This document shows positions 30,801-40,200 of a DNA stretch of 64,000 nucleotides, piece after piece. Under the pieces are notes generated by a model. That model had not been told where the DNA came from. It worked only from the letters and a program-made list of their open reading frames with translations, and ran no database searches. The stretch's first letter is position 1. The number at the start of each line of letters is the position of its first letter. Made by a program: the position numbers and the translations under genes. This DNA is from Phoronis australis (Eukaryota; Animalia; Phoronida): assembly GCA_002633005.1 (NCBI GenBank), contig NMRA01000258.1, positions 186,001 through 250,000 of the forward strand, read 5' to 3'.

Positions 30801-33411
30801 CACGTACGCAGAACTGCCGTCGCAGGAAGTGACGAATTGCATATAATGTAGGACATTTCTGACAGAAAATTGCGTTCATTTAAGCACTTTCGCTTACATT
30901 CACCAATTTCACCAAATGAGTTTTGTCAGTTGAAAGATCTCACTAAAATATAAACATTTCGCAACTCACAGCCCTGTTTGTATTTGCTTTATTTCATTAT
31001 TAATATTTTATCTTTTTAAAGTGAGCGAGGAATCCGGTGAAACCTCATTACATATGGCGGTAATTGAGTTTGTGCCCATACTGCATGAGGCAACTGTCAC
31101 TCACTATGGTTGCTATTTTGGTGGCGTAGCACTAGAAATAAAAAAGCATACCAATTCAGGTATTTCGAAAATATTTGGTGCTGAATTGGAATGCGCTTTA
31201 CTTCGGCTTAGGTTTCGAATGAACCAACTTGCGCCCAAATCCGTTTTGCGAAGTTTTAAATTATAATGACGCGAAAAGAATATCTAGATACTAGACACCG
31301 TTTTGGCAAATTAACAGACATTACCAACGACTTCACATCCAGGTATCTAAAACACAAGAATTTTCTATAACCCTTGTGAACCCTTAAACGCTTGGAGCAA
31401 ATATTGAGAACTCTTTACAAGGTCTGCAAGTAAGTGTGACCGCTTTAGGCGCGATTCACGAAAACTGTATCAGAAAAGAACACCCACCAAGAACCGTGAG
31501 ATCCGTTCTGCAATGTAGCTAAGTATGTGTTTTTATTTGAATCCTGGTTTTATCACTCAAGTGAGGCCCGACAACAGGGTTTAGTATTCTAAATATTTCG
31601 TATGAAAGCCTGTGCTTCTCAGTACCAACTGTTTCTTAAATTTACGTGGTCAACATATTGATCTGCTCCAGTTGAACCTCTTCACGAGCAACGCCTTACA
31701 TCTCAGTTCCTTAACAAAACTACAACGGAAGATGGCCACTACAAGACTACGCATGTGACATGTGACATGAACAGTACGACCAACGTGCATATGACTGTTG
31801 TGTTCAGTTGTTCAGTCGCTGGAACCGACAAAGGTTTCATCTGGTGGGATATTTTCTGTACTGGTAAGTATCCACCTCCGCCAAGCAGGTTGATTTGTTC
31901 CTCTAATGTTAAGTTGTATGTTGAGCACTTTTAGATTAAGGTTTGAGTTTTGAGTGACTGGTGAATTCTCAGAACAAGTTAATAGGAAGTTCCGCGCCAG
32001 CCATTCGGTCGTTGGATAAATTAAAGGGACGTTTTAGCACTGGCATATTTTGGTCGAAGTCTGCACTCTTCGAGAGGATTCTAGTTGGGAACGGATTAAA
32101 AGTCAAGTTTTTGACACTTTTTTGTAACAAACAGCTGTCACGACGTGACTTTAATGAGACAATTTATAGAAACATTAGGTTTAAAAGAAAAAAATATTTA
32201 ATGAAGCTTCAACATTCAAAACCGAACATTTACACACAATAAGTTTGGTCACTGGGTAGACCACTCTCCAAGTGGCACCCCAAACTAATAATACTGAGTC
32301 GAGAGTCCATCTTATTTCACACAGTCCATGCACAGTCTTTTGTGGTCAGCATCCGACTCCATCATCTTTGTCCGCTGAATGTCCCAAGTCTCCTGTAGAC
32401 ACAAACGTTCCACTTTCTGTGAACAGCTTCTAACAAGTCTGCACTGTGTCACGGCTGGCTCTCGACTGATGTACCCAGGTCGAACATTTGAATAAACCCG
32501 GCCAACACAGCAGCTCATTTGCATATAAATGTCCCGGCAACAATTGCTGAAAAATGACGCCGGCGAAGTAACAGATTACGTTCTCAATTATCCTTTCTTT
32601 ACAACAGCCCGATTGAGGAATTAAGGTATTTTATAAGAAGTGACGTCAATTTTCAGTGGGTGTTACATATAACTGTTTTCTTTGTCAGACAATGGCAACG
32701 TAGGTCACATTAATGCCCGATTCATATCAATCATTTGCAGCTCGTCCGAGGCGAAGGAGGCCTCCAAAAGTAACCGGACCTGTGTTCCCCCGACCAAAAC
32801 GAGCTCCATACGAAGCTCCGGCGGCTGAAGTAGTTGGCGGTTTTCAACTAGTGATAGTACTCGCCATTCTTGGATTTATCGTTTTTCTGGATCTTGTTAC
32901 CATTGGTAGGAACTTGCACTTCATGCAAAGAAATCTTCGATGGACGAAAGGACATCACTCTCGTCCAAGGAGCAACAAGCGATGGGTGAAAAATGAGAAG
33001 AATGTGCAGACCATGCGAAAGACTCTTCGACGCTTAGCAGCCATAAAAGCTGGCTCAAAGCTCGACGACTTTCAAACCAAGGAAAAGACTCTTAAGCGGT
33101 TGAAATATTTGAAAGCCCATCCACAACCTAGCGAACAACCTTTGAAATGCAATAAAAACCAAGTTAGTCATAAACGCTCAGACCCTTGGATACCTGCGGA
33201 AATATGTAGACAACACCCTTTAAAACTCAATAACTGGATGGATCTCGTTCCTTTTAATGTTAAGTTAAACATAAACAGTAGACAAGCACGAAGTCGTATT
33301 GCTGGAGCAGAAGAGAAAGCTCTAGGCAGGCGTTTAGTGACGTTGTATCCAGCCTCGAAGTTGTCTTCGATGCACAAGCACAAGAGGCAGCAGAAGATTC
33401 CTGTTGTTTAG
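842..33411 (+). CDS. Gene A: spliced mosaic type-I membrane protein (SP-ShKT-TSP1-like-PAN-kringle-CTLD-WSC-mucin-sushi-like-TM-basic tail), ~1169 aa
   Basis: Exons 842-887, 2878-2991, 14706-14846, 16073-16357, 17064-17315, 17524-17704, 20482-20726, 21636-21869, 29403-30551, 31672-31863, 32741-33411. All have AG/GT boundaries and compatible phases (all introns phase 1 except the phase-2 intron inside the CTLD). They sum to 3510 nt with no internal stop. Linkage of the first two exons across the 11.7 kb TE-filled intron is the least certain part. Confidence 0.8.
1501..1564 (+). CDS. Possible alternative start exon ([22 protein letters not shown])
   Basis: ATG 1501, short hydrophobic N-terminus, AAG|GTAAGA donor in phase 1, compatible with the ShKT exon. 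Confidence 0.35.
2316..2429 (+). pseudogene. Degenerate duplicate ShKT exon
   Basis: Near-identical to 2878-2991 ([37 protein letters not shown]), but the second Cys is Ser and CATATG replaces the GT donor. Confidence 0.75.
2878..2991 (+). CDS. ShKT (ShK toxin-like) domain exon
   Basis: TAG acceptor, 114 nt, phase 1-1, [37 protein letters not shown] with the 6-Cys ShKT pattern, GTAAG donor. Confidence 0.9.
3840..5449 (+). mobile_element. Kolobok-like non-autonomous DNA transposon, family 1, copy 1
   Basis: TTAA flanks; TIRs AGGAGAATGCCATCCGA / TTGGGTGGCATGCTCTT; decayed THAP N-terminus on + (...[13 protein letters not shown]...VCG); convergent acidic ORF stub with GYQFEPEY on - (KolX-like). 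Confidence 0.8.
5454..7097 (-). mobile_element. Kolobok-like family 1, copy 2 (inverted, shares the TTAA with copy 1)
   Basis: AGGAGCATGCCACCC...GGGTGGCATTCTCCT then TTAA at 7098; reverse-complement homology to 3840-5449 throughout. Confidence 0.85.
8310..8457. mobile_element. Short MITE-like dispersed repeat (second copy ~36661-36811)
   Basis: GCGTGCGTTCA...TGAACGG imperfect TIR; shared core TGTTCTCATTTAAAATACAC(G/A)GCAATATCTCACGTAAT. Confidence 0.55.
11489..13437. mobile_element. Palindrome-rich element with a tRNA-like segment (same family as 26761-28485), split by copy A
   Basis: TTTATACCACAATATTAG...GTTATCTCACTAGTGAGATAAC at the left end; 12745-13437 is homologous to 27775-28450. Confidence 0.7.
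11598..12744 (+). mobile_element. CACAGGC-TIR non-autonomous DNA transposon, copy A
   Basis: Long TIRs (CACAGGC.CTTGGGTTTATCTGTTCCTCGATCGCAAATGACGTCACTCAATAA) and a perfect 8 bp TSD GTCGAACC at 11590-11597 and 12745-12752. Confidence 0.88.
14706..14846 (+). CDS. Gene A exon, divergent thrombospondin type-1-like module
   Basis: CAG acceptor, 141 nt, phase 1-1, [46 protein letters not shown] (W..C..C..RTR...C......ETQTC pattern), GTGAAT donor. Confidence 0.65.
16073..16357 (+). CDS. Gene A exon, PAN/apple domain
   Basis: TTTCTAG acceptor, 285 nt, phase 1-1, [16 protein letters not shown]...SCHFK motif, GTGAGT donor; paralogous to 54629-54904. Confidence 0.88.
17064..17315 (+). CDS. Gene A exon, kringle domain
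   Basis: 252 nt, phase 1-1, [35 protein letters not shown]...[34 protein letters not shown] with six kringle Cys. Not present in the ORF track. Confidence 0.93.
17524..17704 (+). CDS. Gene A exon, C-type lectin domain N-half
   Basis: [16 protein letters not shown]...[14 protein letters not shown]; phase 1 to phase 2, matching the next exon. Confidence 0.9.
18670..18925 (-). mobile_element. tRNA-derived SINE-like fragment
   Basis: Minus strand reads CAGCGGTAAGAGCACTAGACCGGCAATCTAGAGACCTGTGGTTTGATTCCC (A-box, anticodon-like stem, B-box), followed by a non-tRNA body. Confidence 0.5.
19100..20239 (-). mobile_element. Kolobok-like element, family 2, with THAP and KolX-like remnants
   Basis: TTAA TSD on both sides; TIRs AGGCGAAGGCAACCTTTTTTC / GAAAAAAAGTTGTCTTCGCCT. 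THAP from ATG 19974 on - ([12 protein letters not shown]...HRFP...RVCGKHF...RLKKDAIPS, two stops). Convergent + stub GGYMFEPEY. Contains N-gap 19478-19605. Confidence 0.85.
20482..20726 (+). CDS. Gene A exon, C-type lectin domain C-half
   Basis: FWLGLTD...YTWSDGS...W...HPS...W...GIICEK; phase 2 to phase 1; GTAAG donor. Confidence 0.9.
21275..21560. repeat. Minisatellite, 25 bp units arranged as a 50 bp higher-order dimer
   Basis: ACCACCGCTAGTATAGAGTTGAAAC / ACTACCGCTGGTATAATGTAAGAAT alternating, with period 50 at 21371/21421/21471. Confidence 0.85.
21636..21869 (+). CDS. Gene A exon, WSC domain
   Basis: 234 nt, phase 1-1, ACY...[28 protein letters not shown]...[11 protein letters not shown]. 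Confidence 0.85.
23606..25177 (+). mobile_element. Kolobok-like family 1, copy 3
   Basis: TTAA-AGGAGAATGCCACCCG ... GGGTGGCATGCTCCT-TTGA; colinear with 3840-5449. Confidence 0.85.
25390..25620 (-). repeat. Dispersed ~220 bp element with AAAATGTAACAA subrepeats (other copies ~35-252 and ~29183-29377 on +)
   Basis: Reverse complement matches GTGTCAGATACCAC... at position 35; the + copies end in CGGCGTATCAA. Confidence 0.65.
26761..28485. mobile_element. Foldback-like element: ~700-790 bp inverted arms around an 86 bp tandem unit
   Basis: Arms 26761-27550 and ~27745-28450 are reverse complements. GTTATCTCACTAGTGAGATAAC occurs at 27555, 27641 and 27727 (last with one mismatch). Each arm has tRNA-like A/B boxes. 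Confidence 0.8.
29403..30551 (+). CDS. Gene A exon, Thr/Ser-rich mucin stalk
   Basis: TTTCAG acceptor, 1149 nt open, phase 1-1, degenerate TTTFST repeats, ends HEPCTQQ|GTAAGT. Confidence 0.9.
31672..31863 (+). CDS. Gene A exon, juxtamembrane Cys module (sushi/CCP-like)
   Basis: 192 nt, phase 1-1, ...TTHVTCDMN...[27 protein letters not shown]; same length as and clearly homologous to 37904-38095. Confidence 0.88.
32741..33411 (+). CDS. Gene A terminal exon: basic linker, TM helix, basic cytoplasmic tail
   Basis: TTTGCAG acceptor; [15 protein letters not shown]...[31 protein letters not shown] at 33409-33411. Confidence 0.9.

Positions 33412-40200: not shown

What the first reader, a model, noticed from the sequence alone, without database searches (positions are those of the whole stretch)
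31672..38095. Unnamed juxtamembrane cassette: EPC + 64-codon Cys exon + PRRRRPPK + EAPAA-TM-Asp
This is the most conserved part between the paralogs, while the mucins and tails have diverged strongly. Four Cys (one from the end of the mucin exon) and a Trp before the last Cys suggest a divergent sushi/CCP fold. A poly-Arg/Pro linker follows, then a TM helix ending in a conserved Asp (GFIVF[L/S]DL) and a basic segment ([11 protein letters not shown] / KHLQTMRKNVR). Inference: a family-defining anchor, possibly for intramembrane pairing with a partner chain.
Basis: partly seen in the sequence, partly recalled or inferred. Interest (0 to 1): 0.7.

Follow-up and report, generated by a model that had tools for sequence, protein, structure and literature searches.

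The report
Shared membrane anchor of invertebrate receptors
Two neighbouring animal genes for predicted cell-surface mucin-stalk proteins end in an unnamed membrane-spanning segment that also ends mussel, ribbon-worm and lamp-shell proteins with different outer parts, and its conserved residues fall on one face of a predicted helix that likely grips a partner helix.

Summary
Two tail-to-tail paralogs (PAN domain, Thr-rich mucin, 192-nt Cys exon, transmembrane exon) share the cassette under purifying selection (pN/pS 0.53 and 0.33). It is two things, not one family-defining unit. (1) The EAP-TM-DxxT-N anchor is widespread and has no Pfam match. It also ends Mytilus C-type-lectin mucins and Lingula and Tubulanus sushi arrays. 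Glu-to-Asp spacing is 26 in 10 of 10 rows. Conservation is helix-periodic (peak 96-100 degrees; TM-only p 0.0004-0.007), with the Asp on the conserved face. That supports helix-helix packing, but the Asp sits at the cytoplasmic edge, not mid-membrane as in DAP12. (2) The Cys exon and PRRRRPPK were found only in these two copies. The Cys module sits where Lingula has its last sushi domain, yet fails sushi profile tests (hhalign 0.9% versus 97% for controls). The fold test was uninformative. Splicing is unconfirmed: few RNA reads, no joints. Verdict: an ordinary kind of protein carrying an unannotated, reused anchor with a likely pairing surface; partner unknown.

The parts
16073..16357 (+). Gene A, PAN/apple-domain exon (6 Cys, phase 1-1); its link to the mucin exon is inferred
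   Evidence: (PAN_1 20.9 bits, cut-off 21.4)
29403..30551 (+). Gene A, mucin exon (43% Ser+Thr), ending in EPC, which gives the first Cys of the module
   Evidence: a few sense-strand RNA reads
31672..31863 (+). Gene A, 64-codon Cys exon (3 Cys, WW, Asn-x-Thr site shared with copy B)
32741..33411 (+). Gene A, last coding exon: Arg/Pro linker, anchor, long basic tail
32812..32940 (+). Gene A, EAP-TM-DxxT-N anchor module (Asp codon 32890-32892)
   Evidence: (69.6 bits with an HMM from homologues only)
36854..37215 (-). Gene B, last coding exon: Arg/Pro linker, anchor, basic tail
37016..37144 (-). Gene B, EAP-TM-DxxT-N anchor module (Asp codon 37066-37064)
   Evidence: (50.5 bits with an HMM from homologues only)
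37904..38095 (-). Gene B, 64-codon Cys exon
39776..41591 (-). Gene B, Thr/Pro mucin exon spanning an N gap (40476-41383); ends in EPC; 5' boundary inferred; one extra Cys near its start
54629..54904 (-). Gene B, PAN/apple-domain exon (7 Cys, phase 1-1)
   Evidence: (PAN_1 29.0 bits, above cut-off 21.4)
56671..56743 (-). Gene B, candidate signal-peptide exon (ATG, hydrophobic stretch, phase-1 donor); one of 3 such candidates, unverified

Best explanation
Each gene likely encodes a type I cell-surface protein (PAN/apple domain on an O-glycosylated mucin stalk, then a small four-cysteine module), and it ends in an unnamed lophotrochozoan anchor whose conserved residues line one face of a predicted helix that likely packs against a partner helix, either a second copy or a shared subunit. 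Shown: the exons, their conservation, the reuse of the anchor under C-type lectin, sushi, TSP1 and PAN ectodomains, its fixed spacing, and the helical periodicity of conservation. Inferred: splicing and topology; a continuous helix from a small-xxx-small pair on the outer side, through Asp and Thr at the inner-leaflet boundary, to a cytosolic His/Asn stripe; and that this face assembles the receptor or docks it to common trafficking or signalling machinery. The Cys module and PRRRRPPK linker are local to this pair. The module is probably a decayed version of the sushi domain that relatives carry at this position (about 50%), acting as a spacer between stalk and anchor.
For: An HMMER scan of 1.84 billion representatives with the two TM exons gave 9 hits at E<=0.001. 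Four carry names with a species: Mytilus (C-type lectin + mucin), Tubulanus (sushi) and two Lingula (sushi; sushi/TSP1/lectin). A wider profile gave 15 hits. An HMM from the 9 homologue rows alone finds both window copies (69.6 and 50.5 bits; next best 7.1 among 2488 six-frame pieces). The nearest Atlas cluster to the Lingula anchor has 477 members, 93% eukaryote, commonest Mollusca, no common Pfam family (score 0.92). Glu-to-Asp spacing is 26 in 10 of 10 rows that hold the Glu; Asp, Thr+3 and Asn+14 are invariant in 11 of 11. Over 9 non-redundant modules the conservation moment peaks at 96-100 degrees; TM positions alone give p 0.0004-0.007 (5000 column permutations). The conserved face points to 316-321 degrees in the TM and 357-6 degrees after it, with Asp at 0; the result holds with the window copies left out. 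Positions -22 and -18 are Ala/Gly/Ser in 9 of 9. AlphaFold on a Lingula homologue gives one helix, 238-275, through Asp260 (pLDDT about 64-75). Negative residues are depleted on the cytoplasmic flank of plain single-pass anchors (PMC5525207, abstract), so an invariant Asp there suggests a job. CD16A pairs with signalling dimers through an FxxDT face in the lower half of its TM (PMC13107469, passages).
Against: The homologues were found with a profile of the window copies, so invariance of Asp, Thr and Asn is partly selected for; one search also picked rows by the D-x-x-T pattern. The 9 modules are not independent (two from one Tubulanus protein, two from Lingula) and no tree correction was made. 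The best 19-residue hydrophobic window ends at or just before the Asp in 9 of 11 rows, so the Asp need not be buried. No partner is identified, and neither tail has a YxxL/I motif. The two faces differ by about 40 degrees, which a broken helix could give by chance. RNA support is thin: depth under 4 on gene A's mucin exon, traces on its Cys and TM exons, no joints; gene B almost none. The Cys module scores 3.6 and 1.9 bits on a sushi HMM against 25-48 for held-out sushi domains.
Confidence: 0.55

Rival explanations
1. The Asp is a helix N-cap, not a pairing residue. It ends the TM helix and starts a basic amphipathic helix that lies on the inner leaflet, so the module is a lipid-sensing or sorting anchor with no partner helix in the membrane.
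For: Asp at 0, Thr at +3, Ile/Leu at +4 in 9 of 9 and Leu at -1 in 6 of 9 fit the Asx N-cap, capping-box and N'-N4 hydrophobic-pair patterns (PMC4515027, passages). One homologue has Pro at +2. The mean post-Asp segment is amphipathic (p 0.04) with net charge +2 to +6.
Against: It does not explain the one-sided conservation inside the TM itself. The amphipathic moment is individually significant in only 3 of 11 rows. The Lingula model shows no helix break at the Asp.
Confidence: 0.25
2. The anchor is an ordinary inherited TM exon, spread by duplication and exon shuffling, and conserved only for insertion and topology.
For: All ectodomain exons here are phase 1-1, which favours shuffling. Homologue identities are only 27-42%. 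Few homologues were recovered.
Against: No indel over 26 residues across brachiopod, nemertean, mollusc and this animal; invariant polar residues; one-faced conservation.
Confidence: 0.12
3. The Cys module is not a sushi remnant but a new small all-beta disulphide domain that folds together with the Arg/Pro linker (Trp-Arg stacking). This concerns the Cys exon only and is compatible with the best explanation for the anchor.
For: Sushi profile tests fail. No Pro after Cys1 and no aromatic at Cys2-2 in either copy, against 9 of 10 and 9 of 10 homologue sushi domains. The linker is the most constrained stretch (71% identity, pN/pS 0.22) and DKGFIWW is shared.
Against: Same place as the last sushi domain of Lingula (Cys4 to EAP 25 residues versus 17-19), with similar Cys spacing and a Trp before Cys4. 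CCP folds can persist at 9.5% identity (TGM1 D3; PMC10516467, passages).
Confidence: 0.45

Closest known systems
Lingula anatina XP_023930952.1 and XP_013406057.1, Tubulanus polymorphus XP_074657347.1 (automatically named sushi/CUB/complement-receptor-like proteins)
   Same: Same EAP-TM-DxxT-N anchor, after a basic/Pro linker; in Lingula a four-Cys domain lies 17-19 residues before EAP.
   Different: Their membrane-proximal domain is a canonical sushi; they carry sushi, TSP1 or lectin arrays and no PAN hit; no PRRRRPPK.
Mytilus C-type lectin + mucin membrane proteins (CAC5400389.1, XP_052062816.1)
   Same: Recognition domain, Thr-rich stalk and the same anchor.
   Different: C-type lectin instead of PAN; no Cys module before the anchor.
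CD16A (FxxDT) and DAP12/CD3 (DxxxT) immune-receptor TM assembly motifs
   Same: An acidic residue with a Thr one turn away on one helix face; in CD16A it lies in the lower half of the TM of a ligand-binding chain (PMC13107469, passages).
   Different: Here the pattern is DxxT at the cytoplasmic edge, extended by His/Asn; no ITAM-type motif, no known partner, no detected homology. An analogy only.
Sushi/CCP/SCR domain (PF00084)
   Same: Four Cys with similar spacing, a Trp before the last Cys, about 65 residues, predicted all-beta.
   Different: Fails HMM and profile-profile tests; lacks the hallmark Pro, Tyr and G-x-W; first Cys on another exon.
PAN/apple domain (PF00024) mucin-stalk surface proteins
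   Same: PAN domain ahead of a mucin region.
   Different: This anchor has not been described for them in the papers searched.

Membership tests
Sushi/CCP (PF00084) | Four cysteines in about 60 residues with typical spacing | tested here: met
   33/15/15 in both copies versus 25-36/16-19/12-21 in 10 homologue sushi domains; the middle gap is one residue short; depends on the predicted splice
Sushi/CCP (PF00084) | Conserved Trp between Cys3 and Cys4 | tested here: inconclusive
   WW present but 4-5 residues before Cys4 versus 7-10 in the 10 homologue domains
Sushi/CCP (PF00084) | Hallmark residues: Pro after Cys1, aromatic at Cys2-2, G-x-W (list recalled, checked on homologues) | tested here: not met
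   0 of 2 copies for each; homologue domains 9 of 10, 9 of 10 and 7 of 10
Sushi/CCP (PF00084) | Profile score | tested here: not met
   No Pfam sushi hit for the exon alone; lineage sushi HMM 3.6 and 1.9 bits, reached by 26-75 of 500 shuffles, versus 25-48 bits held out; hhalign probability 0.94%, 33 of 200 shuffles as good, versus 97-98% for 3 controls
Sushi/CCP (PF00084) | CCP beta-sandwich fold | tested here: inconclusive
   Exon-only model has four strands, pLDDT 62; true Lingula sushi domains also folded poorly from a shallow alignment
Sushi/CCP (PF00084) | Cys1-Cys3 and Cys2-Cys4 disulphides (recalled) | not testable with these tools
   The first Cys lies on another exon; the spliced module could not be folded
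PAN/apple domain (PF00024) | Pfam gathering score 21.4 | tested here: met
   Gene B 29.0 bits; gene A 20.9 bits, just under, and homologous to B (z 15.8)
DAP12/CD3-type signalling module | Centrally placed DxxxT in the TM | tested here: not met
   Asp follows 20-25 uncharged residues, first Lys/Arg 6 residues later in both copies, Thr at +3; definition from PMC13107469
DAP12/CD3-type signalling module | Cytoplasmic ITAM | tested here: not met
   0 YxxL/I-type motifs in 2 of 2 tails
DAP12/CD3-type signalling module | Partner chain with a basic TM residue | not testable with these tools
   No proteome of the organism is held
CD16A-like lower-TM acidic pairing face (works-like only) | Asp and Thr on one helix face in the cytoplasmic half | tested here: inconclusive
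   Asp (0 degrees) and Thr (300 degrees) lie on the conserved face, but the motif is not FxxDT and burial is not shown
Unnamed EAP-TM-DxxT-N anchor | Match to a profile built from other species only | tested here: met
   69.6 and 50.5 bits, next best 7.1
Unnamed EAP-TM-DxxT-N anchor | Glu-to-Asp spacing 26, Thr+3, Asn+14 | tested here: met
   2 of 2 window copies; 10 of 10 rows with the Glu

The most novel reading that the evidence does not exclude
The EAP-TM-DxxT-N exon is a plug-in assembly code of lophotrochozoans: grafted onto lectin, sushi, TSP1 and PAN ectodomains, it couples many unrelated recognition proteins to one shared membrane partner through a conserved helix face. It would be an invertebrate counterpart of the modular CD16A/FcR-gamma and DAP12 receptor design, with a signalling subunit still to be found.
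Probability: 0.25. Interest if true: 0.75.

Novelty: new variant of a known kind. Interest (0 to 1): 0.45.

Why it matters
Molluscs, brachiopods and ribbon worms have many surface lectin and sushi proteins with no known way to signal. A shared, unannotated anchor would group them by mechanism rather than by ectodomain. It also gives a direct test: mutate four to six residues on one helix face and pull down the partner. At minimum it is a Pfam-ready module of about 43 residues that marks a scattered receptor set.

Tried and rejected
No whole genome is held for this window, so copy number in the organism is unknown. No RNA holder was listed. Three raw-read runs of the same species label gave few reads and no joints on these exons, and the contig run showed only intronic repeats. 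A word-indexed search with copy B's anchor alone found nothing among 182 candidates; a ragged alignment found only 2 Mytilus proteins. PDB sequence searches with the Cys pair and the anchor profile gave best E 0.48 and 2. Fold searches with the Cys-exon model gave best Foldseek E 6.9 and best VIA Z 3.7 (rmsd 2.2, 50 aligned), no CCP entry among the 50 listed. The Lingula control model did not retrieve CCP either, so this absence carries no weight. The homodimer job on the anchor (a stretch of homologue P0010, alignment not used) returned 'no answer', score 0.04. Metagenome contigs held no relative of the window pair (258 pattern matches, 0 confirmed). Loci L001-L004 are 25%-identity matches to an unrelated GC-rich ORF without the anchor and were dropped. 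The Atlas gave no named cluster for the Mytilus anchor. Furin shedding was rejected as a family trait: R-x-K/R-R occurs before EAP in both window copies but in only 1 of 10 homologues, and the one site both copies share has Pro at P1' (that Pro blocks cleavage is recalled). An apparent repeat of the basic segment in gene A's tail is not above chance at DNA level (155 of 500 shuffles). Five paper searches for this motif or protein type (listings only, plus passages of PMC13425148) found no description of it; the library omits most subscription journals. Seven look-ups of earlier scan findings gave nothing relevant.
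Full report
What is there. Two paralogous genes lie tail to tail. Gene A (+) has a PAN exon (16073-16357), a mucin exon (29403-30551), a 192-nt Cys exon (31672-31863) and a last exon from 32741. Gene B (-) has a candidate signal exon (56743-56671), a PAN exon (54904-54629), a mucin exon across an N gap (about 41591-39776), a 192-nt Cys exon (38095-37904) and a last exon from 37215. Some boundaries that I tried were off by one to a few bases; the ones given come from the flanks printed there and, and the spliced frames from mucin to stop are open in both copies. 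Gene B has one extra Cys in its PAN exon and one at the start of its mucin exon, gene A has neither; this fits direct PAN-to-mucin splicing but is circumstantial. RNA reads are sparse: a few sense-strand reads on gene A's mucin exon (depth up to 3.9 in 1 of 3 raw runs), traces on its Cys and TM exons, and no listed joint. The gene models are predictions.

The observation. Between the copies the TM exon is 56% identical over 68 codons, the Cys exon 41%, PAN 28%, the mucin end 27%, and the tails do not align above chance. pN/pS is 0.33 and 0.53 for the TM and Cys exons, both intervals below 1, and the Arg/Pro linker is the most constrained piece (71%, 0.22). No Pfam family reaches its cut-off on the Cys or TM exons or on any of 11 anchor rows (best E 0.029).

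The cassette splits in two. An index-free HMMER scan with the two TM exons returned 9 proteins at E<=0.001, all matching from about the EAP onward and none at PRRRRPPK. Four are named: a Mytilus C-type lectin plus mucin protein, a Tubulanus sushi protein and two Lingula sushi-array proteins; the other five are unnamed or hypothetical fragments. A profile of 11 rows gave 15 hits among 7996 scored candidates, adding more Mytilus and Lingula members. A profile from the 9 homologue rows alone finds both window copies at 69.6 and 50.5 bits, next best 7.1. The Atlas places the Lingula anchor next to an unnamed 477-member cluster, commonest phylum Mollusca. So the anchor is widespread and sits under at least four ectodomain types. 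The Cys-exon profile matched none of the 23 other stored proteins. No large-database search was run with the Cys exon itself, so its absence elsewhere is weakly tested; the metagenome scan with the linker patterns confirmed nothing.

The Cys module. Spliced, it reads C-x33-C-x15-C-x15-C with WW just before the last Cys and ends 25 residues before EAP; Lingula's last sushi domain ends 17-19 before. That position and the Cys count are the case for a sushi origin. Against it, a sushi HMM from 10 homologue domains scores it 3.6 and 1.9 bits (held-out sushi 25-48; shuffles that keep the Cys reach the real score 26-75 times in 500). Profile-profile probability is 0.94% against 97-98% for three controls, and the hallmark Pro, aromatic and G-x-W are missing (the Gly after Cys2 was part of the pattern used to collect the controls, so I do not count it). 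AlphaFold gave four strands at pLDDT 62 for the exon without its first Cys, but real Lingula sushi domains also folded poorly from a two-row alignment, so the fold question stays open. Nematode TGM domains keep the CCP fold at 9.5% identity (PMC10516467, passages). I put sushi remnant at about 50% and do not file it as a member.

The anchor. Glu-to-Asp spacing is 26 in 10 of 10 rows; Asp, Thr+3 and Asn+14 are invariant in 11 of 11, partly by selection. The Asp follows 20-25 uncharged residues, and the best hydrophobic 19-mer ends at or just before it in 9 of 11 rows, so it lies at the cytoplasmic edge, at most about a turn inside. That differs from the central DxxxT of DAP12 but is near the lower-half FxxDT of CD16A (PMC13107469, passages), and it runs against the depletion of acidic residues on the inner flank of plain anchors (PMC5525207, abstract). 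The strongest result is the periodicity test. From 23 modules I kept 9 that are under 70% identical (13 near-duplicates and 1 truncated row dropped). Their conservation peaks at 96-100 degrees per residue. For TM positions alone, which exclude the Asp, p is 0.0004-0.007 over two measures and two row sets; for the segment from the Asp on, 0.008-0.013. The conserved face points to 316-321 degrees in the TM and 357-6 degrees after it, and holds a small-xxx-small pair (9 of 9), Ile-8, Ile-4, Asp, Thr, His/Asp/Asn/Gln+7 and Asn+14. One-sided conservation of a TM helix is the usual sign of a protein-facing surface (established knowledge, recalled). The Lingula model has one helix through the Asp. 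The rows are few and related, and no tree correction was applied.

How it most likely works. A PAN domain held above the glycocalyx on a mucin stalk binds a glycan or protein ligand (inferred from the family). The Cys module and stiff basic linker set the distance to the membrane (inferred). The anchor's conserved face packs against another helix, a second copy or a shared subunit, which assembles, sorts or signals for the receptor (inferred, 0.55). The tails are basic, unalignable and have no YxxL/I motif, which fits a chain that borrows its signalling. The main rival (0.25) is an Asp N-cap starting an amphipathic helix on the inner leaflet: the residue pattern fits known capping motifs (PMC4515027, passages) and one homologue has Pro at +2, but this leaves the TM-face conservation unexplained.

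Novelty and verdict. The protein type is ordinary. The anchor has no Pfam match and was not described in the papers that five searches listed (listings, and passages of PMC13425148); those searches cover open-access text only and no supplements were read. New variant of a known kind; interest 0.45.

Noticed in passing
window 2878-3063 (+): A phase 1-1 exon with six Cys in a ShK-like pattern (family name recalled, not scanned), probably from a separate gene upstream.
   Followed up: no
window 36857-36871 (-): Gene B ends in Thr-Glu-Val, a class I PDZ-binding pattern (recalled); gene A does not.
   Followed up: no
P0008 (Tubulanus XP_074657347.1) residues 409-528: Two anchor modules in tandem in one predicted protein, 76 residues apart. 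The second would have inverted topology, so these may be alternative last exons joined by the annotation.
   Followed up: no
window about 42300-46460 (-): A near-identical duplicated segment of about 2.5 kb period with long ORFs, inside gene B's PAN-mucin intron; looks like a recent mobile-element or assembly duplication.
   Followed up: no
window 34229-34360: Short tandem repeat of about 17 nt between the two genes' 3' ends (read).
   Followed up: no
window 3800-7100, 11000-13900, 23600-28600: Several interspersed repeat families in direct and inverted copies, heavily covered by RNA reads from other loci at 24000-28600.
   Followed up: no
window 52192-52608 (-): An ORF resembling a retroelement endonuclease fragment (recalled pattern, not scanned) in gene B's intron.
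   Followed up: no
window 7532-7580 (+): The only ATG-hydrophobic-phase-1-donor candidate for gene A's signal exon in 3100-16073; weak donor, unverified.
   Followed up: partly
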